IMG/VR virus record: IMGVR_UViG_3300045988_034528
DNA: 64,000 nucleotides
Source of the DNA: a virus
Direction: 5' to 3' (one strand)
Part shown: positions 21,747 to 34,226 of the stretch, in pieces
How the letters are laid out: each line of letters opens with the position of its first letter
How positions within the stretch are numbered: the stretch's first letter is position 1
Program-made: the position numbers and the translations under genes
The notes under the pieces: generated by a model
Seen by the model: the letters and a program-made list of their open reading frames with translations, nothing else
Told to the model about the DNA's origin: nothing
Database searches by the model: none

Positions 21747-21780
21747 AAGCAATATTATAAAACAAAAACAAAGGTAAATT

Positions 21781-22551
21781 ATGAGTAAGATTTTAGTTCT
21801 TGCAAAAAGTGGGTTCGGAAAAACTACCTCTTATTGTGGTAGGGAGAAATTAGGTATCAAAGGTCTTGACCCAAAGGAAACTTATGTTATCCAGTGTATT
21901 GGTAGGGGTGTTCCTAACCCTAACTTTAAGCTGATTGAAGGTAGCATTGGAGTAGAGAATGTAGGTAAGCCTACACAGAAACTTGTAAATGCAAATGTCC
22001 TTAGTACAGGCAATAGAGTGCAAGTAGATAATCTTACAGGTCTTGATAGGTTTGCAGTGATAGCAGAACTCATAAATATGCTAAAGAAATCTCCTTTCAA
22101 GAATATTGTAATTGATGATTTCAATTATCTTGCACAGGATTTCTATATGGCAAATGCCATGAAAGGTGGATGGGATACTCCTAAGCAAATTGGCTATGGT
22201 ATGGGCCTCATCTTTGATGCTTTCAAGGGACTTCCTGAGGATAAGAATATCATCTGCTGTGCCCATTATGAGGAATATAAGGATAAGAATGGTGACTCCA
22301 TTTCCTACAAGTTCAAGACCACTGGAAAGATGGTTGATGACTATATTACTCCTGAGGGTAAGTTTGATATTATCCTCTTTGGCAAGGTAGGATATGATGC
22401 AGAAAACAAGAGGCCTATCAAGCACTTTGTCAAGGAGTTTGATGGAGAATATCCTGCTAAAGACAGTCTTGGTGCATTGGATGACCTTCCTGATGAGATT
22501 CCTAATGATTTGTCTATAGTAGTAGACAAATTGAGGGAGATTTATGGATAG
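21781..22551 (+). CDS. Sak4-like / AAA_24-type RecA-fold ATPase
   Basis: N-terminal Walker A ILVLAKSGFGKTTS and Walker B NIVIDDFNYL. Size and position are typical of phage recombination ATPases. Confidence 0.65.
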   Translation: MSKILVLAKSGFGKTTSYCGREKLGIKGLDPKETYVIQCIGRGVPNPNFKLIEGSIGVENVGKPTQKLVNANVLSTGNRVQVDNLTGLDRFAVIAELINMLKKSPFKNIVIDDFNYLAQDFYMANAMKGGWDTPKQIGYGMGLIFDAFKGLPEDKNIICCAHYEEYKDKNGDSISYKFKTTGKMVDDYITPEGKFDIILFGKVGYDAENKRPIKHFVKEFDGEYPAKDSLGALDDLPDEIPNDLSIVVDKLREIYG

Positions 22552-22818
22552 AGAGAAGACAGTATAACTTAGTAAACAAATATATGGTATTACACCATTT
22601 AATGCAAGTAATCAATTACAAATGCTAGAAGAGTTCTTATTGGAAAAGGGAAAAGAAAAAAGTATAGTTAACTTACTTATTAAAATATTATCCCATATAC
22701 CAATACGAGCAAGCATTAACTATTATATAACTGCTATTGAATATTATATTGCTAAGTATAATGTGTATAAATTAAGTAAAGACAACAAAATTATTTTAAT
22801 ATATTAAAAGAAACAATT

Positions 22819-23289
22819 ATGAAAACATTGACAATTAGACAGTTTGCAGGTGTAAAGAGAATTGCACAGAATGTTAATCCTTTGGTAGTAAAGAAGAATA
22901 AGATTGCTGCCAAGATTGATGAACTCAATGCAGAGTATAATGCTCTGACTGAGGAGATTGAAGGGCATGAGATGGGTGTCAAGGCTTTGACAGGTGGCCT
23001 CACAAGTGAAGATTTGGTTGTCAAGAAGGTAGAAGATACTGGTAAGGTTGATAAAGAAGGTAGGCCTGTAAAGGTTACTAAGTATGAGCCTAAAGAAGGT
23101 GTAGTAATATTCAATGAGGAGGCTAATGTGTATGAAATTCATATAGAGGAGCCTGAACTTGAAGCTGTTGCCCCTGAAGCAGTAGATGATACTGAGAAAG
23201 CTCCTGAAAGAGTTCTTCCTGCTGGAGCTGTATTAGCAGAGGAAATTGGAGAGGCATATCTTGAGAGTAAATTGAACAATAATCTTTAA
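22819..23289 (+). CDS. hypothetical protein with an acidic C-terminal tail
   Basis: 156-aa ORF. The richer GC content leaves long antisense shadow ORFs. Confidence 0.7.
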   Translation: MKTLTIRQFAGVKRIAQNVNPLVVKKNKIAAKIDELNAEYNALTEEIEGHEMGVKALTGGLTSEDLVVKKVEDTGKVDKEGRPVKVTKYEPKEGVVIFNEEANVYEIHIEEPELEAVAPEAVDDTEKAPERVLPAGAVLAEEIGEAYLESKLNNNL

Positions 23290-23321
23290 TAGAAGAAAAA
23301 AATTACTATAAAATTATAAGT

Positions 23322-24254
23322 ATGAAGAAGAATATTGGTTTTAATTTTATGGCCTTTAGTAAAGGAACAGTATCTACTGAAGGCAATGTAGTGAAGAGGT
23401 ATGTAGGTGTGGCTCCTGTATTTGTTTTAGCTGTAAATCCTGACAAAGCAGAGCTTGAAAAGCTATATAATACCCAACTTGAAAATGGCCCTGAGTATCT
23501 GGGTGAAGTTGAGGTAGGTGAGGACAAGCACAAGGTACAGAATGTTAGACTTGACTTTATTGTTAAGACTGATGCTGAAAAGTGTGGTGGCATTGAGTTT
23601 ACTACTAAGATAGCCTTCTTCCTTAGAAAGGAGTATAGATACAATAGAGACCAAACTAAGGTACAGGTAATTGATAAGTATGGTAGAACTGCTTGGGTTA
23701 CTGTAGAGCAGGCTAAGGCACATGAAATTCCTGTATATAAGAATGGTCCTGCCAACATTGATAAGGATTACAGACCTGTTTATCATGGTGAGGAAGAGCT
23801 TACTAAATTCATCAAGGCATACCTCAACATTCCTAATGTAATGAAGTATGTTAATAATACTTGGGTTATGGTAGATAATCCTGAGGATTGTGAAGCAAGA
23901 CTTGAACACATTGAGGATTACTTCAAGGGCAATTTCAAGGAGCTGAGAGAAGTTATTGCATTGCAACCTAATAACAGGGTTAAGGTATTGTTTGGTGTAA
24001 AAACCACCGATGATAACAAGCAGTATCAGGCTTTTTATAATCAGATGTTCTTGAAGAACATTACCACTGATTACAGCAAGTTAGATGCAGACTTGCAGGA
24101 AAGAAAGACTGCTGGTGCATATCCTACTACTGAGTTTATTGTGAGTGACTTGAAGGAGTATAATATTGAAGCTACTAACTTCAATAACTCTGGCTCAAGT
24201 GATATGCCTTTCCCTAAGGCAGAAGAGTCCTCCCCTTGGGACTTTGGAAAATAA
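23322..24254 (+). CDS. hypothetical protein (possible ssDNA-binding protein)
   Basis: 310-aa ORF between the recombination ATPase and the primase. The C-terminal SGSSDMPFPKAEESSPWDF resembles the acidic/aromatic tails of phage SSBs. The functional call is weak. Confidence 0.4.
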   Translation: MKKNIGFNFMAFSKGTVSTEGNVVKRYVGVAPVFVLAVNPDKAELEKLYNTQLENGPEYLGEVEVGEDKHKVQNVRLDFIVKTDAEKCGGIEFTTKIAFFLRKEYRYNRDQTKVQVIDKYGRTAWVTVEQAKAHEIPVYKNGPANIDKDYRPVYHGEEELTKFIKAYLNIPNVMKYVNNTWVMVDNPEDCEARLEHIEDYFKGNFKELREVIALQPNNRVKVLFGVKTTDDNKQYQAFYNQMFLKNITTDYSKLDADLQERKTAGAYPTTEFIVSDLKEYNIEATNFNNSGSSDMPFPKAEESSPWDFGK

Positions 24255-24278
24255 GTAGTAATCAAAAAATAGAAAAGC

Positions 24279-25316
24279 ATGGCTGTCAGTAAAGGTGAAT
24301 CTTCTGTTACTTTAAGTGACATCCTAGAGAAGACAACAGAGGCAAATATTCTGTCATTCTATCTAGGAGTCACTGAAATTCCTTGTATTATACATAGCCC
24401 TCTTAGGAAAGATAATAGACCATCATTTGGTCTATACTCTCCTAATGGAAAGAGAATATATTTTGTAGACTTTGCAACCAAGGATAGAGGAGGTATATTT
24501 GACCTCCTTTGTCAGATGTGGGGATGCAGCTACAAGGAAGTCTTAATAAGAATAAACAAGGATATACCAAAGCTCTGCTCTATAGGAACACCTAATGTTC
24601 ATAAACATATTCCATGTACTGTAAGAAGTACCATTGAATGTAAAAAAAGCACTGACTTACAATGTAAAGTCAGAGATTGGGCATCTTATGATGTTGAATA
24701 TTGGGAATCTTATGGAATAAGTCTTGATTGGTTGAAGTATGCAGAAGTTTATCCCATATCACATAAAATTATTATTAAAAATGGTAATAAATATGTGTTT
24801 AAAGCTGACAAATATGCTTATGCTTATGTTGAACATAAAGAAGGAAAGGTTACTTTAAAAGTATATCAACCATTTAATAAAGATGGTTATAAATGGAGTA
24901 GCAATATTGATAGGTCAGTATGGAGTCTTTGGACTAAAATACCTAAGTTTGGGAATAATCTTATAATATCTTCTTCAGTAAAGGATTGCTTAAATATTAT
25001 GTGTAACTTAGGCATTCCAGCTATATGTATGCAGGGGGAGGGGTATAAGCCCAAACCTCAAATTATTGAAGAGCTAAAGAGCAGATACAAGAATATTATT
25101 CTATTCTATGACAATGATTATAACAATCCAGATAATCCTGGGAAAAAAGATAGTATGGAACTATCACTAGAGTATAATCTAAAAAGAGTAGAGATACCTG
25201 TAAAGTATGAATCCAAAGACCCATCTGATTTATTCAAGAAGTATGGAAGAGATAGGTATTTAGAAATAATGAATGAAATCCTTAAAGATTTATTATGGAA
25301 GAATGGAGACCAATAG
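24279..25316 (+). CDS. DnaG-like primase (degenerate zinc-binding region plus TOPRIM-like domain)
   Basis: CIIHSPLRKDNRPSFGLYSPNGKRIYFVDFATKDRGGIFDLL mirrors the DnaG segment CPFH.EKTPSF....y.CFGCG.gGd.i.F. The C-terminal ILFYDNDYNNPDNPGKK fits the TOPRIM DxD. Confidence 0.65.
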   Translation: MAVSKGESSVTLSDILEKTTEANILSFYLGVTEIPCIIHSPLRKDNRPSFGLYSPNGKRIYFVDFATKDRGGIFDLLCQMWGCSYKEVLIRINKDIPKLCSIGTPNVHKHIPCTVRSTIECKKSTDLQCKVRDWASYDVEYWESYGISLDWLKYAEVYPISHKIIIKNGNKYVFKADKYAYAYVEHKEGKVTLKVYQPFNKDGYKWSSNIDRSVWSLWTKIPKFGNNLIISSSVKDCLNIMCNLGIPAICMQGEGYKPKPQIIEELKSRYKNIILFYDNDYNNPDNPGKKDSMELSLEYNLKRVEIPVKYESKDPSDLFKKYGRDRYLEIMNEILKDLLWKNGDQ

Positions 25317-25855
25317 AGGGGTATGAATATTATGAGGTTAGTAATCTAGGCAGAGTGAGAAGTTGGGTAGATAATAGATGGAGAAGAAGAAGTTCCCCTA
25401 AAGTACTATCTCCTCACAGACTAACCAAAGGATATTTAGGAGTATCTCTAAGTAGTGCTCCAAATGTTAGTAAAACTATAAAAGTACATAGACTAGTAGC
25501 TAAGGCATTTATCCCTAATCCTAATAATTTACCTATAGTAAATTATAAAGATGAAAATAAATCCAATAACTGTGTTTCCAATTTGGAATGGTGTACTAAT
25601 AAATATAATCTTAGTTATGGTACAGCCAGACAGAGAATTTTTGAAACCATTGAAAGAAATGGTGGATATAAGGTAAGACCTATTATACAAAAGGACTTAG
25701 AAGGAAATGTAGTTAAGGAATGGAATAGTGCTACAGAAGCTGCTAGAGAGCTAGGTATTGACTGTGGTAAAATACTAGTCGCTTGTCATAAATCTTATAA
25801 AGGATTTCTTTGGAATTTTAAGGAAAAAGAAAGTATTCAGGATAACATTCAGTAA
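25295..25855 (+). CDS. HNH homing endonuclease (NUMOD4-like N-terminus, HNH core, C-terminal HTH), intact
   Basis: MEEWRPIEGYEYYEVSNLGRVRS...VHRLVAKAFIPNPNNLPIVNYKDENKSNNCVSNLEW...N..YG...SATEAARELG. Overlaps the primase stop by 22 nt. Confidence 0.85.
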   Translation: MEEWRPIEGYEYYEVSNLGRVRSWVDNRWRRRSSPKVLSPHRLTKGYLGVSLSSAPNVSKTIKVHRLVAKAFIPNPNNLPIVNYKDENKSNNCVSNLEWCTNKYNLSYGTARQRIFETIERNGGYKVRPIIQKDLEGNVVKEWNSATEAARELGIDCGKILVACHKSYKGFLWNFKEKESIQDNIQ

Positions 25856-25885
25856 TTAAGTATTAACAATAAAAAACTTAACATT

Positions 25886-26161
25886 ATGGAATCTCGTAAA
25901 ATCACTATCGTATCAACTAAAAATCAAACTAAGAAAGTTATCATGTCCTCTGCTACAACTCTTGCAGAGTTAAAAGCTGATTTGAGACAAAATGGTATTG
26001 ATTACCAAGATATGACCTTCTTTGAAGGTACTTCTAAGGTAGAACTAAAGACAGACAATTCAATTCTTCCTCATGATGTACCTTGGAAGGGTACTATTAC
26101 AAATGAGTTGGTATTCATGCTCACCAATACTAACAAGAAAATTAAAAGCGGAAAATTTTAA
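25886..26161 (+). CDS. hypothetical small protein with a beta-grasp (ubiquitin-like) sequence pattern
   Basis: 91 aa. KITIVSTKN / KKVIMSS / helix TTLAELKADLRQNGI / MTFFEG..VELK / ELVFMLTN alternation resembles a beta-grasp fold. The C-terminus is ...KKIKSGKF. Pattern recognition only. Confidence 0.3.
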   Translation: MESRKITIVSTKNQTKKVIMSSATTLAELKADLRQNGIDYQDMTFFEGTSKVELKTDNSILPHDVPWKGTITNELVFMLTNTNKKIKSGKF

Positions 26162-26207
26162 TATGGAAATTTGAAAGGATGCTATAGGATTTGAAGGACT
26201 TTATAAA

Positions 26208-26681
26208 GTGTCTAATATAGGCAGAATTAAAAACAAAAAGGGTGCAATATTAAGTCCTTATCATAATAACAATGGTTATATTAGTATTGATTTGTATAAG
26301 AAAGGTAAAGTATATAAACTAAGAGTACATAGATTAGTAGCTTTAGCTTTTATACCCAATCCAAATAACTTACCTATGGTAAACCATAAGGACGAGAATA
26401 AAACAAACAATAATGTAACTAATCTTGAATGGTGTGACAATTCCTATAATCTTTCTTATGGCTCCAGAACAGAGAAGATGTTTCAATCAAGAAAAGAAAG
26501 AAACAGAAAAACTGCTCAAAAACAGGTAGTACAGCTTGATTTGCAAAATAACATAATAGCAAACTATAATTCTATATCTGAAGCAAGTAGATTTACAGGT
26601 ATAAGTTGTGGAGCTATATGGCAATCTTGTAATCAAGGTTGTATCACTAATAAATCATATAAATGGAAATATAAACAATAA
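26208..26681 (+). CDS. HNH homing endonuclease, N-terminally compromised
   Basis: The ORF as tracked starts at GTG 26208. The same frame begins at ATG 26163 (MEI-TGA-KDAIGFEGLYKVSNIGRIKN), with TGA 26172..26174 sitting where paralogs have the conserved Trp. Confidence 0.7.
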   Translation: MSNIGRIKNKKGAILSPYHNNNGYISIDLYKKGKVYKLRVHRLVALAFIPNPNNLPMVNHKDENKTNNNVTNLEWCDNSYNLSYGSRTEKMFQSRKERNRKTAQKQVVQLDLQNNIIANYNSISEASRFTGISCGAIWQSCNQGCITNKSYKWKYKQ

Positions 26682-26691
26682 AAAAGACATT

Positions 26692-27099
26692 ATGAATACA
26701 AATAATATGACAAGAACCGAGGCATATAATACCATTAAGAGCATGGGTCTTCAAGATGCCTGTTTTAAGAAATTTGGAAAGAATTTCACTATGTGTAAAA
26801 CTGCTGACCTAATTGCACTGATTGAGGCACACAAGGATTCCGAAGAAAAGGTTCCTGTTATACAGCCTGCTCCCATTGCTGCTACACAGCATGAGAGCTA
26901 TGTAGATGTTGCTGCAAGAGCTGCTATTACTAGAATGACAGAAATCCTTGTGAAGAATGGTCAGTTTAATGAGTATGAGAGTGAAGAGGTACTTAGCACC
27001 CTTGGTGGAGCATTAAATGTTACTCTTGTAGAAGATAAGTCTGAGTCTCCTTACTCTGACAATGAGATTGATACTATGTTTGATGACATGGGTATCTAA
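26692..27099 (+). CDS. hypothetical protein with an N-terminal HeH/SAP-like motif
   Basis: The track ORF starts at 26608 inside the HNH gene. ATG 26692 (MNTNNMTRTEAYNTIKSMGLQDACFKKFGKNFTMCKTADLIALIEAHK) is preferred. Confidence 0.6.
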   Translation: MNTNNMTRTEAYNTIKSMGLQDACFKKFGKNFTMCKTADLIALIEAHKDSEEKVPVIQPAPIAATQHESYVDVAARAAITRMTEILVKNGQFNEYESEEVLSTLGGALNVTLVEDKSESPYSDNEIDTMFDDMGI

Positions 27100-27126
27100 A
27101 GATAATAAAAGATTTATGCAATGGTA

Positions 27127-27160
27127 GGTAAGAGATATTATATCTCTTACCTCTTTTTTT
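27127..27160 (+). terminator. rho-independent terminator
   Basis: Perfect 11-bp stem GGTAAGAGATA-TTA-TATCTCTTACC followed by TCTTTTTTT. Confidence 0.85.
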
Positions 27161-27162
27161 AC

Positions 27163-28470
27163 ATGAACATGAGTGAAGAAAATATTAAGCAATTTAATGA
27201 AAGTGTACACCTAATCTATAATGCTATAATGGATAAGCCTCTTCAGGTGCTTAGCATATTCAATGATTTCTTTGGGGTAGATAGAGTTGATATGCAAGGT
27301 GTTTGGAGTGAAGATAGACTAAGGTCCTGGCTTGAAGTAGAACCTATTACTTCATACCTCTATAGAGGTAATTTAGATATATCAACTAGTGACTGGCATA
27401 CATACTCTACTAAGAGTATAATAGATTTGACTCAAAGTGATTTTGAGAGAGTAATTTCATCATTATCTTGTATAGATACGATAAAAAATATTGTTAATAG
27501 TAAGTTTAATAATATATTTATACTTGTACACTTTCCACATGTAAGGGTTACTAATGAACATGATAGGTATGTAGATATTAATCATCTATGGGCTAAGATT
27601 AGAATAACATTTAATGGTACTATGGAAGGTTATTTTGCTCTCAATAGGTCTGAGTACCAAGCTACTCACTTTATGAGTGGTTATATGCACAGTCATGTAA
27701 GTAGTATTCCTAAAAGTGACTTTACTAGGTTTCAGACTCCTTGCACTGGAAATGGGCCTATCAATAGTACTATATCCTCCTTACATGTAGAATTTGATAG
27801 TAACCTTTGGCAACTATTCTGCCTTGAACTCAGTAAATATGTTACTGTTGAATCTATTCAAGGAAGACCTTTTAGGTATCTTGAGAGAATAGGTACTAGT
27901 AATATGGATATGGGAGTATCTTCCTTTATTGTATTTAATGCTCTTAGATACTGGGATGCTTCTTTTGAAAATCCAGACAAGTTAAAAGAGTTTGTCAAAT
28001 ACTTTATTCAAGATAATCATTTGAAGTTTAATTATGTAAATGGCTCCTATTCTATAGGAATGTCTTTCATAGAGTTTATAGTATTGATTAGTAATGAATT
28101 TATCAAATGGTATAATAAACAATTCAATGATAAGAAAGTAACTACTACTTTTGAAAATCTGAAAAGAGGCCGTGTAATTAGAGAGTGTATTATTAGTGGT
28201 AGTAAAATCTATTATAATAACAACCACAGGAACAATGTTAATAATCTCGTTTCTTATATAGGAAAAAAGATTTGCACTTTCAAAGGAACAGAGATTACTC
28301 TTAGTATAGTAGGAGTATCTGAAGTAAATGATGAGAACAAGAGCATTATACTTGACCCTCAGACTGCATTATTTATATTAAGTCAAATCCTCAAAGTATT
28401 AAATTACAGATATGGAAGAGAAACAGCAACTCATACAAACAAAATTGGTACAGAAGTCAGGTACTTATAA
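27163..28470 (+). CDS. hypothetical protein, first gene of the JAB/E1 cassette
   Basis: The track start at 27121 lies inside the terminator hairpin. ATG 27163 or 27169 (MNMSEENIKQF...) is preferred. Contains SGYMHSHVSS and TPCTGNGP. No confident family assignment. Confidence 0.7.
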   Translation: MNMSEENIKQFNESVHLIYNAIMDKPLQVLSIFNDFFGVDRVDMQGVWSEDRLRSWLEVEPITSYLYRGNLDISTSDWHTYSTKSIIDLTQSDFERVISSLSCIDTIKNIVNSKFNNIFILVHFPHVRVTNEHDRYVDINHLWAKIRITFNGTMEGYFALNRSEYQATHFMSGYMHSHVSSIPKSDFTRFQTPCTGNGPINSTISSLHVEFDSNLWQLFCLELSKYVTVESIQGRPFRYLERIGTSNMDMGVSSFIVFNALRYWDASFENPDKLKEFVKYFIQDNHLKFNYVNGSYSIGMSFIEFIVLISNEFIKWYNKQFNDKKVTTTFENLKRGRVIRECIISGSKIYYNNNHRNNVNNLVSYIGKKICTFKGTEITLSIVGVSEVNDENKSIILDPQTALFILSQILKVLNYRYGRETATHTNKIGTEVRYL

Positions 28471-28750
28471 TTATAAGATAGTCATACCAGCTGAAGTTGA
28501 GAAAAAGATAAGATTTACCTGTCAAAGAGTATGGAATACAGAGTGGTCAGGTACATTATTCTTTACATATGAAGGCTCATTTGAAAATAATGACCTTGTA
28601 ATCAGATGTGTTGATATTTACATTATGGATATTGGTACTCAAGCTTATACAGAGTTTGATATGAATCCTGATGTAATTGCATATATGTGTAAAAATCCTG
28701 AGTTATTAGATTGTCAGATGGGGTTAATCCATTCACATAACAATATGTCT
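28412..28750 (+). CDS. JAB/MPN (JAMM) metalloprotease domain protein, exon 1
   Basis: NTEWSGTLFF (conserved Glu) ... GLIHSHNNMS. The HxH of the JAMM motif is followed by an artificial stop two codons later. The motif is completed only after the intron is removed. Confidence 0.7.
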
Positions 28751-28768
28751 AAATAATTTATTTATTTC

Positions 28769-28800
28769 TTTGCATAATTCAAAATATTTTCTTATCTTTG
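28769..28800 (+). promoter_or_regulatory. Bacteroides-type promoter inside the intron, upstream of the LAGLIDADG ORF
   Basis: TTTG-CATAATTCAAAATATTTTCT-TATCTTTG-CA (TTTG, 20 nt, TAnnTTTG), 23 nt before the ATG at 28823. Confidence 0.55.
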
Positions 28801-28822
28801 CAGCATAACAAATAAAAAAGCT

Positions 28823-29719
28823 ATGCTGAACATCAAAGATTACAAAGAGCAAATTGTAGATTTATATCAAAAAGGTAAAACTGCTAAAGAAATCAGTTCT
28901 ATATTAGGATTTAAGTATCATCAGCCAGTTTATAATTTCTTTAAAAAAATGGGCTGGGAAAGAAATGGTAAAACAGGTAAAAGAATCTATAAGGTAAATG
29001 AGCAATTTTTCAATAATATAAACACTGAGGAAAAAGCTTATATACTAGGTTTTATATGTGCTGATGGACATATAGAAAAGGATAGATTAAATGTAACTGT
29101 AGCTATAAAAGATAAGGATATACTTGAAAAGATTAGAAAAGCTATGCAATCTAATCATCCTATAAAAGAAGTAAAAAGAACTAATCCATATAATAAAACT
29201 AACAGGAAAACTCTTACACTTGCAGAATTAATGATAGGCAGTGTTGAGGTAGTTAAACCATTATTTAAGATGGGATTAACTACTAATAAGTCTTATACAC
29301 TAAATGGGGATATAGTAAAATATATTCCGAAATATTTAATTAGAGATTTCCTAAGAGGTTATTTTGATGGAGATGGTAATGTATTCTTTGGCAGAAGATA
29401 CTCCTCTGGGTATAAATATAATATAAATATATGTGGTAATGAAGATTTTCTACTGAAATCATTTCAAACTTACTTCCCAAGTAATAACAAGCTATATAAA
29501 GATTTATATAGCAAGCAATGTTTTGTTTGGAAATTAAGCCAAAGAGATAAAGTAAGAGATTTCATGTATTATCTATATTACAATTCTTCAATTTTTCTAC
29601 AAAGAAAATATAATGAATTTAGAAAAATAATGTGGGCATATAAAACTGGGTTAATTGCTGGAAACTCCTACTCTAATATGCAAAATAGAGGGACAATCAG
29701 CAGCCAATCTATAGATTAA
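28823..29719 (+). CDS. LAGLIDADG homing endonuclease (intron-encoded)
   Basis: Two LAGLIDADG motifs, YILGFICADGHIE and FLRGYFDGDGNVF, plus an N-terminal HTH-like KGKTAKEISSILG. The 3' end overlaps the intron P/Q core elements. Confidence 0.85.
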   Translation: MLNIKDYKEQIVDLYQKGKTAKEISSILGFKYHQPVYNFFKKMGWERNGKTGKRIYKVNEQFFNNINTEEKAYILGFICADGHIEKDRLNVTVAIKDKDILEKIRKAMQSNHPIKEVKRTNPYNKTNRKTLTLAELMIGSVEVVKPLFKMGLTTNKSYTLNGDIVKYIPKYLIRDFLRGYFDGDGNVFFGRRYSSGYKYNINICGNEDFLLKSFQTYFPSNNKLYKDLYSKQCFVWKLSQRDKVRDFMYYLYYNSSIFLQRKYNEFRKIMWAYKTGLIAGNSYSNMQNRGTISSQSID

Positions 29720-29879
29720 ATGTTTATAGCAGGTTCAACGACTAACAGGTGAAACTATAGAAATATAGAATATAATCCTGACACGAAATCCCAGCACATA
29801 GAAATATGTGAAGATATAGTCTGAACACTATAGTAATATAGTGAACATAGGGATAAAGAGCCTTATGGGTAACAAAATG

Positions 29880-30752
29880 ACATTTTTTAGTGGAACAGAT
29901 ACTGCTACATTAAAAGAAGAAGGTAGGGATAGGAATAATTTTGTGTCTCTTATTGTCAATAATGAAGGTACTTATACTGCTGCTATTACTAGAAAAGTTA
30001 AAAGATATAGCCAAATTAAAGATATATTAGTATATGAATTTTTTGGTGATGGAGAGAAACAAGACACAAAAGAATATACTCAAGATGGGATAGATGAGAT
30101 TGAATGGTTTTATCTTAAAATAGAGAAAGAAGGAGATAATTATTCCTTTTCAGACATAACAACAAGACTTGAGGAAATCAAGCAAGCTAAAGCAGAAAGG
30201 GCAAAGAAAGTTCAGACACCTATATATCAAGGTAGTTATAAGCCTGTTATTGCTAATTCCTATAGTATAAAAGCAGGCCCAGCAAATCTTACCAAGAAAG
30301 AAGTTGATAAGCCAAAAATAATCCAAACTTCTCTCTTTGATGATATAGATGACTTGCCATTTGAAGAAAGGTATGACATACCTTATGGTCAAGTATCATT
30401 TGATAAGTCTACCTTGAAATCTCTTGTACTTCAACTGATTACAGGTAGTATTATTATTTCCAATGATAGTAAGATTAACATTACTAAATGGGCTAATTCA
30501 ATGCCTACACTATATGAAAAGAGGTTTGGTAATGGTGAAGAAGGTATGAAAAATTTCAAAATGTGGGCAGATACCTATACAGATTATCTGACATGGTATG
30601 TGACAGATGAGAAATTAGAAGAGCTTGGCTTTGATGAAACAGAAATTTGTGCTATTTGTGCTCATGATATGATTGAGGAATTAACCAAGCTCCCTGAAAA
30701 TGAATATATTAAAGGATTTATTGATGTACTTCAAAAGTATTTAGTATTATGA
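29880..30752 (+). CDS. JAB/MPN protein, exon 2 (rest of the JAMM motif plus a ~280-aa C-terminal region)
   Basis: Begins TFFSGTDTATLKEEG (the S-x2-D of JAMM). The track ORF start (GTG 29841) is intron sequence. The stop overlaps the E1-like start (ATGA). Confidence 0.7.
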   Translation, partial: TFFSGTDTATLKEEGRDRNNFVSLIVNNEGTYTAAITRKVKRYSQIKDILVYEFFGDGEKQDTKEYTQDGIDEIEWFYLKIEKEGDNYSFSDITTRLEEIKQAKAERAKKVQTPIYQGSYKPVIANSYSIKAGPANLTKKEVDKPKIIQTSLFDDIDDLPFEERYDIPYGQVSFDKSTLKSLVLQLITGSIIISNDSKINITKWANSMPTLYEKRFGNGEEGMKNFKMWADTYTDYLTWYVTDEKLEELGFDETEICAICAHDMIEELTKLPENEYIKGFIDVLQKYLVL

Positions 30753-31669
30753 CAACTAGTGAAATAGAAGACAGAGTAGCAGAATCTGAAAGAGCTTTAG
30801 AAGAAGCTATTGAAGAGTTCAACTCTGTAGAGGAGTATGAAGAGGCTCTTCAGAATCTTGATAATGATTCACCTTTGACAGAGGAAGAACAGGCTATTCT
30901 TGACCAAGCTGTAGAGGAAGCACATCAGGAGATACCTGTAAATTCTGAAACTTTGCTTGTGGATGAAGCTACTAGTAGGTTCAGCTCTGCTATTTGGTAT
31001 GAAAAGATACAGGAAAAGACTATTGTTCTTGCAGGTGTAGGAGGTATTGGCAGTTATGTTGGATTCCTACTTGCAAGGATGAAGCCGGCTTCTATGTTTA
31101 TTTATGATGATGATATAGTAGAAGCTGTTAATATGTCAGGTCAGTTATATGGTCAGAATGATATTGGAGTTGCTAAAGTAACTGCCCTTGCAAATATGGT
31201 TAGGAATTATGCTAACTATAATAGTGTATTTGCTATAGCTGAAAGATTTACTTCTGAATGTGAACCTACAGATATTATGATTTGTGGGTTTGATAATATG
31301 GAAGCTAGAAGAGTATTCTTTACAAAGTGGACTGAGTATGTTTATAGCAAGCCTAAGGAGGAAAGAAAGAATTGTTTGTTTATTGATGGTAGATTGGCAG
31401 CAGAAGAGTTTCAAATATTATGTATTAGAGGAGACGATGAATTTAATATCCACAGGTATAATAATGAATTTTTATTCTCTGATGCAGAAGCTGATGAAAC
31501 TATTTGCTCTTATAAACAAACTACCTTCTGTGCAAATATGATTGCTTCTTACATGGTTAATTTGTTTGTAAACTTCTGTGCTAACCAATGTAACCCTATT
31601 ATTGACAGAGACCTGCCATTCCTTACTACATATAATGCAGAAACAATATATTTTAAAACCGAAGCATAA
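30749..31669 (+). CDS. E1-like adenylyltransferase (ThiF/MoeB/UBA family)
   Basis: IVLAGVGGIGSYVGFLLARM (GxGxxG Rossmann), IYDDDIVEAVNMSGQLY (equivalent to D.D.Ve.sNL.RQ), ICGFDNMEARRVF. Acidic ~75-aa N-terminal extension. Confidence 0.8.
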   Translation: MTTSEIEDRVAESERALEEAIEEFNSVEEYEEALQNLDNDSPLTEEEQAILDQAVEEAHQEIPVNSETLLVDEATSRFSSAIWYEKIQEKTIVLAGVGGIGSYVGFLLARMKPASMFIYDDDIVEAVNMSGQLYGQNDIGVAKVTALANMVRNYANYNSVFAIAERFTSECEPTDIMICGFDNMEARRVFFTKWTEYVYSKPKEERKNCLFIDGRLAAEEFQILCIRGDDEFNIHRYNNEFLFSDAEADETICSYKQTTFCANMIASYMVNLFVNFCANQCNPIIDRDLPFLTTYNAETIYFKTEA

Positions 31670-32454
31670 TGGAATTTTCAGATAGATTTGTATATGAAAT
31701 GACTAGACCATTCTATGTTGCCCAATCTACTAACCTTGATACAAGCCTTGAAAGTAGTCTTACTCTTGACAGTAATAATATATTCAGTAGAAGTCTTGTT
31801 GTAGATATTACAGGGGATGATATTGAAATACCTTCGATTGTTAGAGCACCTTGTGAAAACTTTATCAGAAATAATTTAGTTTATAATTTTATACAGAAGG
31901 CAGAGAGAATTATATTACCTCTTTATACAAATAGTAATGATCTAAATAAAAGAACTTTTGACAGTATCATTAAAGAGTTCTTTTGTCAAGTATCTTTTAA
32001 TAAAAGATTACTAAAGATTACAACTGCTAAAGGTGAGACTTACTATGGTGGATGTGGACTCATATTAGATGAGAAGTTTAATCCTCTCTTAATGTGTGGA
32101 CTAAAGGCTAGAAAGGTAGTAACAAAGAATAATAAAGGTATAGAATTTGTATCTATGCAATACTATAGGACTATCTGTCGTGTTAGTCCTGTAGTATTTG
32201 CAGAGCCTAATAGGTTAATTAACAAGGGTATTATAAATAAACTAATTCCTCTATATACTACTGAGGACATACAATTTCCAACTTCTAATTCTGGCATTTC
32301 AAATAATCCTAATAGTATGAAAGTAGAAGTGGTTATAGATGATTTTAGTAAGTTTTTCATTACCCCTATTGCACCTACTCCTAGTAAGTGTAGTAATGGT
32401 ACACTTAATAAGTGTCTAAATGACAATATAGAAGACATTCTGGATTTGCTATGA
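31669..32454 (+). CDS. hypothetical protein, coupled to the E1-like and UDG genes
   Basis: 261-aa ORF. TAATG overlap upstream and ATGA overlap downstream. Confidence 0.7.
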   Translation: MEFSDRFVYEMTRPFYVAQSTNLDTSLESSLTLDSNNIFSRSLVVDITGDDIEIPSIVRAPCENFIRNNLVYNFIQKAERIILPLYTNSNDLNKRTFDSIIKEFFCQVSFNKRLLKITTAKGETYYGGCGLILDEKFNPLLMCGLKARKVVTKNNKGIEFVSMQYYRTICRVSPVVFAEPNRLINKGIINKLIPLYTTEDIQFPTSNSGISNNPNSMKVEVVIDDFSKFFITPIAPTPSKCSNGTLNKCLNDNIEDILDLL

Positions 32455-33128
32455 CAGTAGAAGAATATTTTGGGGATTGGATGAAAGTAATTGATAGAGT
32501 AGAACTTAATAATGTAATGACTAAGATTGGACAAGAATATAAAAGAAAACCTATATGCCCTACTCAATCTGATGTATTCAAAGCATTTGAGTTATGCTCT
32601 CTTAAAGACTTGAAGATAGTTATGCTTGGTCAGGATCCATACCCACAAAAGGAAGTTGCTACTGGTATACTATTTGGGAATAAAGTAAATTCTCAAGAAA
32701 AAAATTTATCTCCATCTTTACAAGTTATTAAAGAGGCTGCTATAAATTTTGAAGTCCCAAAAAATAGTTGTATCTTTGACCCCACTTTAGAGAGTTGGGC
32801 AAAACAGGGGATACTAATGATAAATTCAGCCCTCACAGTAGAAATGAATAAGGTTGGTTCTCATGTGATGATATGGAGACCATTCATAATTGCCCTATTA
32901 AAACACTTATCAGAGTGTGAGACTGGTATTATTTATGTTCTATTTGGGAGGCAGGCTCAGACATTTAAGCCCTATATTAACAAACAATTCAATAACATTC
33001 TTGAAATTGAACATCCAGCATACTATGCAAGACTTAATAAGAGAATGTCATCTGAATTGTTTGCTACTATAAGTAATTTGTGTAAAGATAAATATGGAGT
33101 ACCAATTAAATGGTATCAAGAATATTAA
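32451..33128 (+). CDS. ung: uracil-DNA glycosylase (family 1-like)
   Basis: VMLGQDPYPQKEVATGILFG (compare GQDPYH...G), GILMINSALTVE, IEHPAYYA (compare HPSPLS). Confidence 0.8.
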   Translation: MTVEEYFGDWMKVIDRVELNNVMTKIGQEYKRKPICPTQSDVFKAFELCSLKDLKIVMLGQDPYPQKEVATGILFGNKVNSQEKNLSPSLQVIKEAAINFEVPKNSCIFDPTLESWAKQGILMINSALTVEMNKVGSHVMIWRPFIIALLKHLSECETGIIYVLFGRQAQTFKPYINKQFNNILEIEHPAYYARLNKRMSSELFATISNLCKDKYGVPIKWYQEY

Positions 33129-33148
33129 ATAAAAAAAAACAAAAGACA

Positions 33149-33712
33149 ATGGAAAAATTTTATTTGAAAAATGGAAAAGAAGTACAGATTGGAGACACTC
33201 TTACCAAGGTAACTAAGACTAAACATCCTCTATTTGGCGAAGGTACTAAGGTAGAAAGTATAGTAATTACCAAGACATCTTTGCCTAAACTGATTGAGAG
33301 GGGTATTATTACTACCTCACTTGGTTCTGACTTTGATGTAGACAAAGTTATGCCTACTGAGTCACATATGAATCTTCACTACTATGTTGAAAAGCTAGCA
33401 AAGAAACTTAACTGGAAGGTAGATAAAGTGTATAACTATATTAATACCATTGACAGTGTATATCCTGCTGCTGCATTCTCTATGTTACTCAGAGAAATAG
33501 CTATTGAGCTTGACAAGAAGTATAAAGATCATATTGAAAATAGTCCTGAGATTTATGTAATCTCTGTGTTTGATGGTAGAATTACCAAGGCTAATAAGGC
33601 TCATATCAAGAATTATAGGAATTTTGCTGCATTTAGGTCTGTAAGTGATGCCAAGATTGCTTGTAATATTATGAAGGATATTCTTAAAGAACTGTTCAAA
33701 AGTGGTAAATAA
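33149..33712 (+). CDS. hypothetical protein
   Basis: The track start 33110 overlaps UDG. ATG 33149 (MEKFYLKNGKEVQIGD...) is preferred. Confidence 0.65.
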   Translation: MEKFYLKNGKEVQIGDTLTKVTKTKHPLFGEGTKVESIVITKTSLPKLIERGIITTSLGSDFDVDKVMPTESHMNLHYYVEKLAKKLNWKVDKVYNYINTIDSVYPAAAFSMLLREIAIELDKKYKDHIENSPEIYVISVFDGRITKANKAHIKNYRNFAAFRSVSDAKIACNIMKDILKELFKSGK

Positions 33713-34226
33713 GAAGATTAAGAATGCTACTAAGAGTAATCTAGGAAACTTGGCCTTTAAATCACAGTTGGAGAAGAGTATATATAATACTCTTCTTCAA
33801 CAGGGATTTACTCCTCAATATGAGCCAATTACCTTTACATTATGGGATGGGTTTACTCCTATTACACCTTACTATGATAAAGAAACTGATAAACAGAAGA
33901 TAAAAAGATTGTCAAATGGAATAAATACTTGTCCCTCAAAGATACTTATTCAGAAAGTAGGCAAAGTGGTGGGTATAAGATATACTCCAGACTTTTATTT
34001 CAATTATAAGGGCTTAGATGTTTACATTGAGGCTAAGGGAATTGAGAATGACGTCTTTTATATCAAAAAGAAGATGTTTATAAAGTATCTTGATGATATA
34101 TTGATTAATACTGGAAGAAGGTCTATATACTTTGAGGTTTATACTAAGAAGCAACTCTTACAGGCAATAGAAATAATTAAAGACTATGCAACAGAATGTA
34201 ATTCACAAACTGATACAACAAGCTAA
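33702..34226 (+). CDS. PD-(D/E)XK-type endonuclease (possible junction resolvase)
   Basis: VGIRYTPDFYFNYKGLDVYIEAKG fits the YxPDF ... hhhE-x-KG restriction-endonuclease-like motif. Confidence 0.5.
   Translation: MVNKKIKNATKSNLGNLAFKSQLEKSIYNTLLQQGFTPQYEPITFTLWDGFTPITPYYDKETDKQKIKRLSNGINTCPSKILIQKVGKVVGIRYTPDFYFNYKGLDVYIEAKGIENDVFYIKKKMFIKYLDDILINTGRRSIYFEVYTKKQLLQAIEIIKDYATECNSQTDTTS

What the first reader, a model, noticed from the sequence alone, without database searches (positions are those of the whole stretch)
25886..32454. Phage-borne JAB + E1-like cassette with a nearby beta-grasp-like protein: a ubiquitin-like conjugation or sulfur-carrier type module in the replication block
Seen in sequence:
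- an E1-type adenylating enzyme (30749..31669: GxGxxG Rossmann motif, DDDIVEAVNMSGQLY, FDNMEAR);
- directly upstream of it and ATGA-coupled, a JAMM/JAB metalloprotease gene (28412..28750 + 29880..30752);
- two large unassignable proteins flanking the pair (27163..28470, 449 aa; 31669..32454, 261 aa);
- overlapping start/stop codons that chain the whole string into the uracil-DNA glycosylase gene.

If the two HNH insertions are ignored, a 91-aa protein with a ubiquitin-like strand/helix alternation and a C-terminus of ...KKIKSGKF (25886..26161) lies just upstream.

Established knowledge: E1-like plus JAB, with or without E2-like and Ubl partners, defines prokaryotic ubiquitin-like transfer systems (CBASS Cap2/Cap3, Bil-type operons, PRTRC cassettes on mobile elements) and Ubl sulfur-carrier pathways (ThiS/MoaD/TtuB types, where a JAMM protease trims the Ubl tail).

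Inference: the phage may conjugate or deconjugate a Ubl, either as an anti-defence decoy or for replisome or virion modification. Alternatively it may run a sulfur relay; the phage also carries tRNA-Lys(UUU), Glu(UUC) and Gln(UUG), the classes that receive 2-thiouridine. I cannot assign an E2, and the Ubl call is pattern recognition only.
Basis: partly seen in the sequence, partly recalled or inferred. Interest (0 to 1): 0.8.

Follow-up and report, generated by a model that had tools for sequence, protein, structure and literature searches.

The report
Phage ubiquitin-like protein, E1 and JAB cassette
A crAss-like gut phage carries, inside its DNA-replication genes, a conserved set of genes for a ubiquitin-like protein made as a precursor, the enzyme that would activate it and the protease that would trim it, so this phage group probably runs its own protein-tagging system, whose targets are unknown.

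Summary
30749-31669 is an E1/ThiF-type adenylating enzyme. 28412-28750 + 29880-30752 is a JAB/JAMM protease gene, split inside its catalytic motif by a group I intron carrying a LAGLIDADG gene. The 91-aa ORF (25886-26161) models confidently as a beta-grasp fold with a floppy tail.

The main correction is that the 91-aa ORF is not a complete gene. In 81 of 84 related loci it is the N-terminal domain of a 215-290 aa protein. The domain always ends in ...K-x-[KR]-S-G, and a variable C-terminal part follows. Here a free-standing HNH gene has cut the gene two codons after that Gly.

Ubl precursor, an orphan 435-aa protein, JAB and E1 occur together, in that order, in every relative examined: Bacteroides, Flavobacterium and lemur-gut crAss-like phages. 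The orphan protein and JAB each occur in 74 of 50,697 phage genomes, with the same genus breakdown. This E1 clade was found only on phage contigs.

No E2 could be assigned. Tests of the orphan protein against E2s were negative. Conjugation, sulfur transfer and other roles cannot be separated by computation.

Best reading: a phage-encoded pro-Ubl processing and activation module. It is a new variant of a known kind and can be tested in the cultured phage crAss001 (Gp79-Gp75).

The parts
25886..26161 (+). N-terminal piece of the split pro-Ubl gene: a beta-grasp domain (residues 4-81), a flexible tail NTNKKIKSG, and two non-native residues (KF) supplied by the inserted element
   Evidence: AF2 pLDDT 89.8 with topology b-b-a-b-b..b. 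Foldseek PDB hits are all ubiquitin-like folds. It is collinear with residues 1-89 of the 253-aa and 225-aa proteins of L001 and L002. The S-G is invariant in 84 loci and K-[S/A]-G is kept in distant clades.
26163..26681 (+). Free-standing HNH homing-endonuclease gene that splits the pro-Ubl gene. It has an in-frame TGA at codon 4, and the longest clean ORF starts at GTG 26208.
   Evidence: It is paralogous to the HNH at 25295-25855. No group I intron signal was found in 25200-27300 even at E<=10. The insert is almost entirely ORF. Relatives L004 and L048 carry the same insertion, and L003 carries a decayed remnant.
26689..27099 (+). C-terminal piece of the split pro-Ubl gene (136 aa): a conserved ~40-aa motif MxRxEAYxxIKxxGLQxxCxKxFGKNFTxCKTxDLIxL, a low-complexity linker, a helical region, and a tail S..EI..MF
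   Evidence: tblastn with the fused homologues and an alignment of 55 distinct C-terminal regions. No Pfam, NCBIfam or PADLOC family matches.
27126..27160 (+). Intrinsic-terminator-like hairpin (12-bp stem, 3-nt loop) followed by CTTTTTTT, between the pro-Ubl gene and the 435-aa gene
   Evidence: It is the best terminator-like site in 24000-34000. A hairpin plus T-run at the same place, with different stem sequences, is found in 12 diverse relatives including Flavobacterium phage Fpv3.
27163..28470 (+). Orphan 435-aa protein ('p449') that is always found with the Ubl, JAB and E1. Invariant residues: Y-x-H-S-H ... C-x-G ... E-S-x-x-G-x-P. Role unknown.
   Evidence: Alignments. Same phyletic profile as JAB. 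The family has 2253 clusters at 50% identity. No fold or family assignment.
28412..28750 (+). JAB/JAMM metalloprotease, exon 1 (through ...GLIHSHNNMS)
   Evidence: The spliced product matches uninterrupted homologues. E44, H107, H109, S117 and D120 are invariant across distant clades. 27 of the 31 PDB matches, including all the best-scoring ones, are JAMM enzymes: CSN5, Rpn11, JAMM1. Pfam Prok-JAB E = 3.7e-4.
28751..29879 (+). Group I intron inserted within the JAMM motif codons. It carries a LAGLIDADG homing-endonuclease ORF (28823-29719), and the ribozyme core is at 29630-29843.
   Evidence: Rfam RF00028 at 74.1 bits against a cut-off of 50. Pfam LAGLIDADG_3 at 2.4e-10 and PHROG endonuclease at 4e-48. 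U precedes the 5' splice site and G ends the intron.
29880..30752 (+). JAB/JAMM metalloprotease, exon 2 (TFFSGTD..., the rest of the MPN domain, plus a conserved C-terminal helical domain of unknown function)
30749..31669 (+). E1-like (ThiF/MoeB superfamily) adenylating enzyme. Kept in all homologues aligned: GxGGxGS, the N-terminal R-F-S motif, DNMxxR, and a Cys (C253, ETICSYKQTTF) that I place, from memory, at the position of the E1 active-site cysteine.
   Evidence: Pfam ThiF 1e-16. PDB profile hits to UBA5, MccB, TcdA, PaaA, ThiF, Cap2 and NAE. Alignments.
31669..32454 (+). 261-aa protein of unknown function. It is the last gene of the cassette slot, has no invariant Cys or His, and is found only in the Bacteroides-phage clade.
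   Evidence: Alignment. No PDB, Pfam, NCBIfam, PADLOC or PHROG match. The HMM finds no homologue in the Fpv-like or Dulem-like phages. It lies inside the primase-UDG slot.

Best explanation
This is a self-contained, phage-encoded module for maturing and activating a ubiquitin-like protein.

Proposed mechanism:
1. The substrate is a precursor: a beta-grasp domain whose flexible basic tail ends in Ser-Gly, followed by a variable C-terminal region. In this window the two halves are already separated by an HNH gene.
2. The JAB metalloprotease cuts after the conserved Gly. In this window it removes Lys-Phe. In most relatives it releases the whole C-terminal protein.
3. The E1-like enzyme adenylates the exposed Gly carboxylate, and may carry it on its conserved Cys253.
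4. The Ubl is then passed to lysines of phage or host proteins. Transfer could be direct, as in archaeal SAMP/UbaA systems that have no E2, or go through the always-associated 435-aa protein with its invariant HxH...CxG site.
5. JAB could also reverse the conjugation.
6. A conserved terminator after the precursor gene would let the substrate be made in excess over the enzymes.

Shown: the folds and families of the three core proteins, their intact catalytic residues, the conserved Gly boundary, and the linkage and phyletic pattern.

Inferred: cleavage, adenylation of this Ubl, conjugation, the role of the 435-aa protein, and the targets.
For: - The Ubl has a beta-grasp fold with a disordered tail.
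- S-G is invariant at the domain boundary in 84 loci, while the residues after it vary in number and kind.
- K-[S/A]-G is kept in Flavobacterium and other distant clades (KQVKSGG, KTKSG, QSKAG), although the downstream region is unrelated in length and sequence.
- Natural split alleles end two residues after the Gly (SGKF, SGIC, SGKC, SGK) in many ~100-kb phage contigs. The split persists after the HNH gene has decayed (L003). The two halves are therefore tolerated as separate polypeptides.
- JAB keeps all five JAMM residues. E1 keeps its nucleotide-binding, Arg, Asp and Cys residues.
- The gene order Ubl / 435-aa / JAB / E1 is kept in 80 IMG/VR loci and in Fpv-like and Dulem-like phages.
- The 435-aa protein and JAB are each found in 74 of 50,697 phage genomes with the same genus breakdown. 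E1 is found in 82 with the same breakdown plus 8 records of other phages (mostly jumbo phages).
- This E1 clade was found only on phage-like contigs among the contigs of 185,579 species genomes.
- Bil operons have the order Ubl-E2-JAB-E1 (PMC11601603).
- A terminator hairpin after the precursor gene is kept with different stem sequences.
- In Cellulophaga phage phi14:2 the same primase-UDG slot holds an amidoligase/ATP-grasp/GGCT ligation cassette instead.
Against: - There is no biochemical evidence.
- No E2 or E3 was recognised. The 435-aa protein shows nothing against E2 profiles or solved structures, and its model is only moderate (pLDDT 66.9).
- The E1 cannot be placed in a Ubl-activating clade. 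MccB, TcdA and PaaA, which act on other substrates, score about as well as UBA5.
- The tail has a single Gly (Ser-Gly), not Gly-Gly, in most members.
- All carriers are related phages with collinear replication modules, so conserved order and an identical phyletic pattern may partly reflect common descent rather than functional coupling.
- The terminator places the Ubl gene in a different transcription unit from the enzymes.
- The AF2 alignment for the Ubl was shallow (37 sequences, 53% identity or more).
Confidence: 0.5

Rival explanations
1. Sulfur-carrier pathway. After JAB trimming, the E1 adenylates the Ubl Gly and it is converted to a thiocarboxylate. That donates sulfur to a small molecule, tRNA or DNA base, with the 435-aa protein (conserved Cys and His) as the sulfur-inserting enzyme.
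For: - The best NCBIfam matches of the E1 are ThiF/MoeB models.
- From established knowledge, JAB trimming of sulfur-carrier Ubls is known (CysO/Mec+, QbsE/QbsD).
- The phage encodes tRNA-Lys(ttt), Glu(ttc) and Gln(ttg).
- The cassette sits among nucleotide-metabolism genes.
- The 435-aa protein has an invariant Cys and HxH.
Against: - The ThiF/MoeB matches are far below the family cut-offs (62 against 159 bits, 34 against 449) and cover only the Rossmann part.
- No rhodanese, cysteine desulfurase, PP-loop, ThiG, MoaE or CysM-like partner appeared in the Pfam and NCBIfam scans of the cassette proteins.
- The tail is Ser-Gly rather than Gly-Gly in most members.
- From memory, a 130-200 aa conserved C-terminal extension is unusual for sulfur carriers, and bacterial 2-thiouridine-34 synthesis does not use a Ubl.
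Confidence: 0.12
2. No Ubl activation at all. The beta-grasp domain is just a structural or adaptor domain of a replication-associated protein. The E1-like enzyme adenylates some other carboxylate, such as a peptide C-terminus as MccB/PaaA do or a nucleoside as TcdA does. JAB is an ordinary maturation protease. The genes are neighbours only because the replication module is collinear in related phages.
For: - MccB (2e-8), TcdA (4e-7) and PaaA (3e-6) score like UBA5.
- A conserved terminator separates the Ubl gene from the enzyme genes.
- All carriers are related phages, and primase and UDG are equally syntenic.
- Beta-grasp domains have many non-conjugating roles; the top Foldseek hit is a DIX domain.
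Against: - It does not explain why the only strictly conserved feature at the domain boundary is a basic tail ending in Gly, across clades whose downstream regions are unrelated.
- It does not explain why split alleles break just after that Gly.
- From established knowledge (Iyer et al. 2006, PMC1779556), the combination beta-grasp with terminal Gly + JAB + E1 is the signature of Ubl systems.
- No alternative peptide substrate gene was noticed in the ORF list of the region, though short ORFs were not searched systematically.
Confidence: 0.2
3. Counter-defence. The phage JAB and E1 act on the host's Ubl-type immunity (Bil, Bub, type II CBASS Cap2/Cap3). For example, they could strip host Ubl from phage proteins or CD-NTase conjugates, or the phage Ubl could act as a decoy that titrates host enzymes.
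For: - The PADLOC 'E1-E2' (Cap2-type) models are the only defence-library hits, at 1e-11.
- Host Ubl conjugation to phage tail proteins is an established defence (PMC11601603).
- Some of the cultured carriers are lytic Bacteroides phages.
Against: - The PADLOC hits cover only the shared E1 Rossmann segment (residues ~85-175).
- A deconjugase alone would suffice for stripping, yet the phage keeps its own Ubl precursor, E1 and a fourth protein as a unit.
- The cassette sits in the replication module rather than among accessory genes, and it is kept across hosts as different as Bacteroides and Flavobacterium.
Confidence: 0.1

Closest known systems
Bacterial Bil (BilABCD) ubiquitination-like anti-phage operons
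   Same: Four-gene logic and order: Ubl, then a second protein, then a JAB/JAMM peptidase, then E1 (PMC11601603, read). The Ubl is a beta-grasp, and the JAB and E1 are predicted to be active.
   Different: - It is carried by a phage, in the replication module, not by a bacterial defence island.
- The second gene shows no detectable E2/UBC similarity.
- The Ubl is made as a fusion precursor with a long C-terminal region and ends in Ser-Gly.
- A terminator follows the Ubl gene.
- No PADLOC hit was found for the Ubl, and only a weak one for JAB (E 0.013).
Archaeal SAMP / UbaA / HvJAMM1 (and Thermus TtuB/TtuC) systems
   Same: From established knowledge, a minimal set of beta-grasp Ubl, a single-domain E1 and a JAMM protease conjugates proteins without any E2 or E3. 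NCBIfam SAMP-activating E1 matches weakly (4e-6).
   Different: Those Ubls end in Gly-Gly, double as sulfur carriers and are cellular. Here there is a precursor fusion, Ser-Gly, an extra obligate 435-aa partner and a phage context. The score is far below the family cut-off (26 against 450 bits).
Lambda/T1 tail-assembly proteins I (Ubl) and K (JAB + NlpC/P60)
   Same: It is phage-encoded. The Ubl domain has a conserved terminal Gly and is fused through a linker to a C-terminal domain. A JAB peptidase was predicted to release the Ubl at that Gly (Iyer et al. 2006, PMC1779556).
   Different: That system has no E1, and it lies in the tail module. Its JAB is fused to NlpC/P60, whereas here the JAB carries an unrelated helical C-terminal domain and the cassette is in the replication module.
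UFM1 / UBA5 and other single-Gly, C-terminally extended eukaryotic Ubls (Atg8, Atg12); ubiquitin-ribosomal fusion precursors
   Same: From established knowledge, these Ubls are made with a C-terminal extension that a protease removes to expose a single Gly, and the E1 is minimal with one adenylation domain. UBA5 is the best solved-structure match of this E1 (7e-9).
   Different: The match covers only ~77 residues of the nucleotide-binding region, and there is no UFC1-like E2. The protease here is a JAMM metalloenzyme rather than a cysteine protease.
Microcin C mccA-terminator-mccB arrangement (E1-like MccB)
   Same: An E1-like adenylating enzyme acts on a gene-encoded substrate, and the substrate gene is followed by a terminator so that it is over-expressed relative to the enzymes (from memory). 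MccB scores 2e-8.
   Different: That substrate is a heptapeptide ending in Asn, not a folded beta-grasp ending in Gly, and that system has no JAB.

Membership tests
Prokaryotic Ubl + E1-like + JAB triad (Iyer et al. 2006 class) | A beta-grasp (ubiquitin-like) protein or domain with a conserved Gly at the end of the domain | tested here: met
   AF2 pLDDT 89.8 with beta-grasp topology. Foldseek hits to ubiquitin, SUMO, DIX and UBX folds. S-G is invariant in 84 loci, and K-[S/A]-G is kept in distant clades.
Prokaryotic Ubl + E1-like + JAB triad (Iyer et al. 2006 class) | An E1-like adenylating Rossmann domain with intact nucleotide-binding and catalytic residues | tested here: met
   Pfam ThiF at 61.3 bits against a cut-off of 28.1. 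GxGGxGS, R-F-S, DNMxxR and Cys253 are invariant.
Prokaryotic Ubl + E1-like + JAB triad (Iyer et al. 2006 class) | A JAB/MPN+ peptidase with the motif E...HxHx7Sx2D | tested here: met
   The motif is restored by splicing. E44, H107, H109, S117 and D120 are invariant. 27 of the 31 PDB matches, including all the best-scoring ones, are JAMM enzymes. Pfam Prok-JAB is just below its cut-off (20.8 and 23.5 against 25 bits).
Prokaryotic Ubl + E1-like + JAB triad (Iyer et al. 2006 class) | Conserved gene linkage of the three | tested here: met
Prokaryotic Ubl + E1-like + JAB triad (Iyer et al. 2006 class) | The E1 adenylates the Ubl Gly, and the JAB cleaves at it | not testable with these tools
   This needs biochemistry or complex structure prediction.
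Bil (BilABCD) operons | A separate E2 (UBC-fold, catalytic Cys) between the Ubl and JAB | tested here: not met
   For the 435-aa protein at that position: hhalign against four eukaryotic E2s gives probability 0.3%. Foldseek against PDB gives no match (best E 0.7). There are no meaningful PADLOC, NCBIfam or Pfam hits. The model is only moderate (pLDDT 66.9), and no bacterial E2 profile was available, so a very divergent E2 is not excluded.
Bil (BilABCD) operons | Encoded in bacterial genomes as an anti-phage defence system | tested here: not met
   This E1 clade was found only in phage genomes and phage-like contigs.
Type II CBASS Cap2/Cap3 | An E2-E1 fusion (Cap2) acting on a CD-NTase, with a Cap3 JAB | tested here: not met
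   The E1 is a 306-aa single-domain protein. The PADLOC E1-E2 models match only residues ~85-175. No CD-NTase was seen among the cassette proteins.
PRTRC cassette (ParB-related, ThiF-related) | Proteins reach the NCBIfam PRTRC_ThiF and PRTRC_A cut-offs | tested here: not met
   PRTRC_ThiF scores 33.9 against 144.75 bits, and PRTRC_A 12.5 against 101.8 bits. Other PRTRC proteins have no hit.
ThiS/MoaD-type sulfur-carrier pathways | ThiF/MoeB equivalog-level E1, a Gly-Gly terminus, and linked sulfur-transfer or acceptor enzymes | tested here: not met
   The best ThiF model scores 62 against 159 bits. The terminus is Ser-Gly in the window's clade. No rhodanese, ThiG, MoaE or PP-loop domain appeared in the Pfam and NCBIfam scans of the cassette proteins.
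MccB/PaaA-type peptide-adenylating E1-like enzymes | An N-terminal peptide-clamp domain and a short precursor peptide gene upstream | tested here: inconclusive
   MccB matches at 2e-8, but only over residues 67-134 of the profile, the Rossmann region. The N-terminal ~70 residues here are acidic and variable. Short precursor ORFs were not searched.

The most novel reading that the evidence does not exclude
crAss-like phages of the crAss001/DAC15/Fpv4 lineages run a true E1-dependent protein-conjugation system of their own. As far as I know it would be the first described for a virus of bacteria. The 435-aa orphan family (HxH...CxG) would be a previously unknown kind of E2/E3-like transferase. 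Proteolytic release of the Ubl would at the same time liberate a replication-associated C-terminal protein. Related phages would fill the same genomic slot with an unrelated amidoligase-type ligation system.
Probability: 0.3. Interest if true: 0.85.

Novelty: new variant of a known kind. Interest (0 to 1): 0.62.

Why it matters
Ubl conjugation in bacteria has recently been shown to be an anti-phage weapon (Bil, type II CBASS). A complete Ubl / protease / E1 set carried by phages themselves would show that the other side of the conflict uses the same chemistry.

The carriers are relatives of the most abundant phage group of the human gut. They include cultured, tractable members: crAss001 Gp79-Gp75, DAC15/DAC17 and Flavobacterium phage FpV4. 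The prediction can therefore be tested directly.

The cassette also points to a large orphan protein family (more than 2000 clusters at 50% identity) as a candidate new component of Ubl pathways.

Public annotation calls these genes 'thiamine biosynthesis protein', 'metalloprotease domain containing protein' and 'hypothetical protein'. This work gives grounds to revise those names.

Tried and rejected
- **Group I intron around the second HNH gene.** Rfam at E<=10 over 25200-27300 found nothing, and the insert has no room for a ribozyme. I therefore read it as a free-standing homing-endonuclease gene and a truly split gene, not an intron.
- **E2 assignment for the 435-aa protein.** All of these were negative: a PDB sequence profile, AF2 plus Foldseek against PDB, BFVD, which returned family members only, hhalign against four eukaryotic E2s, and PADLOC, NCBIfam and Pfam.
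- **E2-like motif in a jumbo-phage neighbour.** A motif IHPH...LCLG in a Xanthomonas jumbo-phage protein aligned with the HSH...CxG segment, but without significance (probability 0.4%). I dropped it as evidence.
- **The 261-aa protein.** Nothing was found in any library.
- **SAP/HeH reading of the C-terminal piece.** This is my pattern recognition only. Pfam at E<=1 gives nothing, so it is not claimed.
- **Cellular counterparts.** The genome scan returned four contigs binned as MAGs of unrelated phyla. The three long enough to check carry the phage cassette, and the fourth, 3.7 kb, carries its E1 and 261-aa genes. I take them to be mis-binned phage.
- **Literature.** No paper in the library holds both 'crAss-like' and 'ThiF', or both 'crAss001' and 'ThiF'. 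Searches returned nothing relevant. The Iyer et al. 2009 amidoligase paper could not be retrieved, so what I say about it is from memory.
- **Subfamily placement of the E1.** Profile matches cover only the common Rossmann core, so no assignment was made.

Full report
**What the window is.** The region lies in the plus-strand replication block of a crAss-like phage. The nearest public records are bajarodcaudo virus 1 and the Kehishuvirus phages related to crAss001, at about 74-79% DNA identity over parts of the region. In crAss001 the orthologous genes are annotated as follows:
- Gp80: primase
- Gp79 and Gp78: hypothetical proteins
- Gp77: 'metalloprotease domain containing protein'
- Gp76: 'thiamine biosynthesis protein, ThiF'
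- Gp75: hypothetical protein
- Gp74: uracil-DNA glycosylase

**Check of the observation: E1.** It matches Pfam ThiF well above the curated cut-off, 61.3 against 28.1 bits.

**Check of the observation: JAB.**
- Relatives with an uninterrupted gene have exactly this sequence.
- The intervening 1129 bases hold a LAGLIDADG ORF and a group I ribozyme core that Rfam scores at 74 bits against a threshold of 50.
- The exon ends in U and the intron ends in G.
- Sequence matches to JAB families are individually weak: Pfam Prok-JAB 3.7e-4 and PDB JAMM1 2.4e-3.
- With a profile that includes distant homologues, 27 of the 31 solved-structure matches, including all the best-scoring ones, are JAMM enzymes: CSN5, Rpn11 and JAMM1.
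- The Glu, both His, the Ser and the Asp are invariant.

I regard both enzyme calls as secure.

**The 91-aa ORF.** An AlphaFold2 model built on 37 homologues has mean pLDDT 89.8. Its order of elements is strand-strand-helix-strand-strand...strand, and its last ten residues are of low confidence. The 50 Foldseek matches listed in the PDB include ubiquitin, SUMO, DIX, UBX and related domains, with TM 0.45-0.63 among the top matches and E values of 1e-3 to 1e-2.

**The key correction.**
- The ORF is not a whole gene. In bajarodcaudo virus 1 and PhiCrAssBcn22, the 91-aa ORF and the 136-aa ORF at 26689-27099 are the two ends of a single protein of 253 or 225 aa.
- Of 84 related loci that could be read, 81 have the fused form and 3 have the split form.
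- In every one the beta-grasp domain ends ...K-x-[KR]-S-G. After the Gly come one to four variable residues, then a conserved motif MSRxEAY.
- In more distant phages (Flavobacterium phage Fpv3 and environmental relatives, Dulem virus 41) the domain still ends KQVKSGG, KTKSG, QTKSG, KVSSG or QSKAG. What follows differs in length (about 60 to 200 aa) and sequence.
- In the window an HNH gene occupies nearly all of the 527-base insert. No intron signal was found even at a lax threshold. The gene is therefore really in two pieces: the first ends SG-KF-stop and the second starts at a new ATG.
- The large protein database holds many stand-alone 91-aa versions ending SGKF, SGIC, SGKC or SGK, some on contigs of about 100 kb.
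- One close relative (L003) keeps the split although its HNH gene has decayed to a remnant.

So the strongly conserved feature at the junction is a flexible basic tail ending in Gly, and nature has repeatedly tolerated a break just after it. That is what one expects if the protein is normally cut there.

**Linkage.**
- tblastn with the window's proteins shows the order primase / Ubl-fusion / 435-aa / JAB / E1 / 261-aa / UDG in the 80 IMG/VR loci fetched with the E1. Exceptions are loci where the contig ends, and two loci where no UDG match was found.
- HMMs built from these find Ubl-fusion / 435-aa / JAB / E1 in most of the Fpv3-like and Dulem-like loci, where the E1 is only 33-37% identical, and in the same order where all four are found. 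In three of the Fpv3-like loci (L101, L103, L104) one of the four was missed or found only in pieces.
- The 261-aa protein has no detectable homologue there, although another unassigned gene follows the E1.
- Among 50,697 phage genomes, the 435-aa protein and JAB each hit 74 records with the same genus breakdown. The E1 hits 82, with the same breakdown for the shared genera plus 8 records of other phages, mostly jumbo phages.
- The Ubl is found by tblastn in 45 records, and by HMM in the Flavobacterium phage Fpv3 and its environmental relatives.
- A scan of one genome for each of 185,579 bacterial and archaeal species found this E1 clade on only four contigs. They are binned as MAGs of unrelated phyla. 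The three long enough to check carry the phage cassette, and the fourth carries its E1 and 261-aa genes. I take them to be mis-binned phage.

A caveat applies to all of this. The carriers are related phages with collinear replication modules, so part of the pattern is inheritance and not proof of functional coupling.

**The same slot in a phage that lacks the cassette.** Cellulophaga phage phi14:2 belongs to the same family (Steigviridae) and did not appear among the phage records matched by any of the four genes. Between its primase and UDG, with the same flanking genes further out, it has five different genes: GGCT, a RimK-like ATP-grasp, a COOH-NH2 ligase, a class II amidotransferase and an amidoligase. 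The same gene set sits beside the primase/helicase in LUZ24-like phages (PMC3890496). From memory, Iyer and colleagues (2009) predicted that this set makes or attaches peptide tags; I could not retrieve that paper. One ligation system replacing another in one slot is suggestive. It does not prove a shared role.

**A conserved terminator.** The best terminator-like site in 24000-34000 is a 12-bp hairpin plus T-run at 27126-27160, between the end of the Ubl-fusion gene and the 435-aa gene. A hairpin plus T-run is present at that place in twelve diverse relatives, including Fpv3, and the stem sequences differ. It has three consequences:
- It makes 27163 the probable start of the next gene, which is then 435 aa and not 449.
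- It means the Ubl gene is not translationally chained to the enzymes.
- It fits a layout in which a substrate gene is over-expressed relative to its processing enzymes, as I recall for mccA and mccB. It could equally mean separate regulation.

**The enzymes in detail.**
- E1: the alignment keeps the glycine-rich loop, an N-terminal R-F-S motif, the DNMxxR motif and one Cys (C253 in ETICSYKQTTF), even in the jumbo-phage homologue. My placement of that Cys at the position of the E1 active-site cysteine is from memory and was not tested.
- E1: profile matches to solved structures are UBA5 (7e-9), MccB (2e-8), TcdA, PaaA, ThiF, Cap2 and NAE, all over the Rossmann core only. NCBIfam matches (ThiF, MoeB, 6A-MBL cap2_3, PRTRC_ThiF, SAMP E1) are all far below their cut-offs. 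Superfamily membership is certain. The subfamily, and hence the substrate class, is open.
- JAB: it carries a conserved C-terminal helical domain of about 110 aa with no match.

**The 435-aa protein.**
- It belongs to a large family: 2253 clusters at 50% identity, all 248-458 aa among the 150 listed.
- Across the deepest splits, the residues that stay fixed include Y-x-H-S-H, then C-x-G 14 to 27 residues later, then E-S-x-x-G-x-P.
- It occupies the position that E2 holds in Bil operons, whose order is Ubl, E2, JAB, E1 (PMC11601603).
- Its model shows helices, a three-strand meander, a loop with the His and Cys residues, then helices. However, the model is only moderate (pLDDT 66.9).
- Foldseek finds nothing in the PDB and only family members in BFVD.
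- hhalign against a small eukaryotic E2 profile gives 0.3% probability.

I therefore do not call it an E2. It may be a new transferase, an adaptor or a target.

**Mechanism.** The best-supported reading is a pro-Ubl maturation and activation module:
1. JAB cuts after the conserved Gly.
2. E1 adenylates that Gly.
3. The Ubl is then attached to proteins, either directly as in the E2-less archaeal SAMP system or through the 435-aa protein.

I give this 0.5. The rivals are:
- a sulfur-carrier pathway (0.12);
- no Ubl activation, with the E1 acting on another carboxylate (0.2);
- a counter-defence role against host Ubl-type immunity (0.1), which could also be the biological purpose of a true conjugation system.

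None of these can be excluded without experiments.

**Comparison with known systems.** The cassette meets the defining features of the general prokaryotic Ubl + E1 + JAB class (Iyer et al. 2006, PMC1779556). It does not meet those of Bil, type II CBASS, PRTRC or ThiS/MoaD pathways.

Its nearest phage precedent is the lambda tail-assembly pair I/K. There, a Ubl with a terminal Gly fused to a C-terminal domain was predicted to be released by a JAB. That system has no E1 and lies in the tail module.

I found no paper in the searchable library that links crAss-like phages with ThiF, E1, JAB or ubiquitin-like proteins. Public annotation recognises only 'ThiF' and 'metalloprotease'.

**Verdict.** The feature is real and conserved. 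It is a new variant of a known kind, with a testable and fairly novel implication. Interest 0.62.

Noticed in passing
L106 (Cellulophaga phage phi14:2, NC_021806) 20971-28370: A phage of the same family lacks the Ubl/435-aa/JAB/E1 genes. In the identical slot between primase and UDG it carries GGCT, a RimK-like ATP-grasp, a COOH-NH2 ligase, a class II amidotransferase and an amidoligase. The same set lies next to the primase/helicase in LUZ24-like phages (PMC3890496).
   Followed up: partly
window 27126-27160: A strong terminator-like hairpin plus T-run lies between the Ubl-precursor gene and the 435-aa gene. It is kept with different stem sequences in 12 diverse relatives, including Flavobacterium phage Fpv3.
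   Followed up: yes
window 26163-26681; L003, L004, L048: The HNH gene that splits the Ubl gene has TGA at codon 4, where its paralogue (25295-25855) and the L048 copy have Trp. L004 has the same TGA. L003 keeps only a decayed remnant of the HNH gene but still has the split. The TGA could be a nonsense mutation with a downstream GTG start, or recoding; this was not resolved.
   Followed up: partly
window 25295-25855: A second free-standing HNH endonuclease gene overlaps the 3' end of the primase gene (24279-25316) and sits just upstream of the Ubl gene. Relatives such as L012, L020, L033 and L048 also have extra DNA between the primase and the Ubl gene.
   Followed up: no
window 28751-29879; L061, L076, L103, L060, L033, L047, L048, L054, L056: Mobile insertions recur in this gene string. 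JAB is interrupted at or near the JAMM motif in L061, L076 and L103, and tblastn finds it in two pieces under an annotated 'endonuclease' in some Flavobacterium phages (Fpv1, Fpv20). E1 is interrupted in L060, L076 and L103. UDG is interrupted after residue 62 in several loci.
   Followed up: partly
L085 (Xanthomonas phage PhiXhv-15) 2763-7518: Jumbo phages of Xanthomonas and Erwinia have an E1 (29% identical, with the same conserved Cys). Near it lie a 141-aa protein ending ...KASGG-stop and an 892-aa Cys-rich protein containing IHPH...SLCLG. This may be another phage Ubl system. The similarity to the window's 435-aa protein was not significant.
   Followed up: partly
window 9287-11586 (minus strand) and 15802-16166 (plus strand): There are 18 tRNA genes in two arrays, including two tRNA-Ile(tat), two tRNA-Arg(cct), two tRNA-Asn(gtt) and both tRNA-Glu(ttc) and tRNA-Glu(ctc).
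   Followed up: no
window ~13000 and ~57000: GC skew changes sign at about 13 kb and again at about 57 kb. This coincides with the plus-strand early/replication block, which is flanked by minus-strand regions.
   Followed up: no
L086-L089: Four contigs carrying this phage cassette are deposited as parts of MAGs assigned to Bacilli, Acholeplasmatales, Spirochaetia and Clostridium. They are most likely crAss-like phage contigs that were mis-binned.
   Followed up: partly
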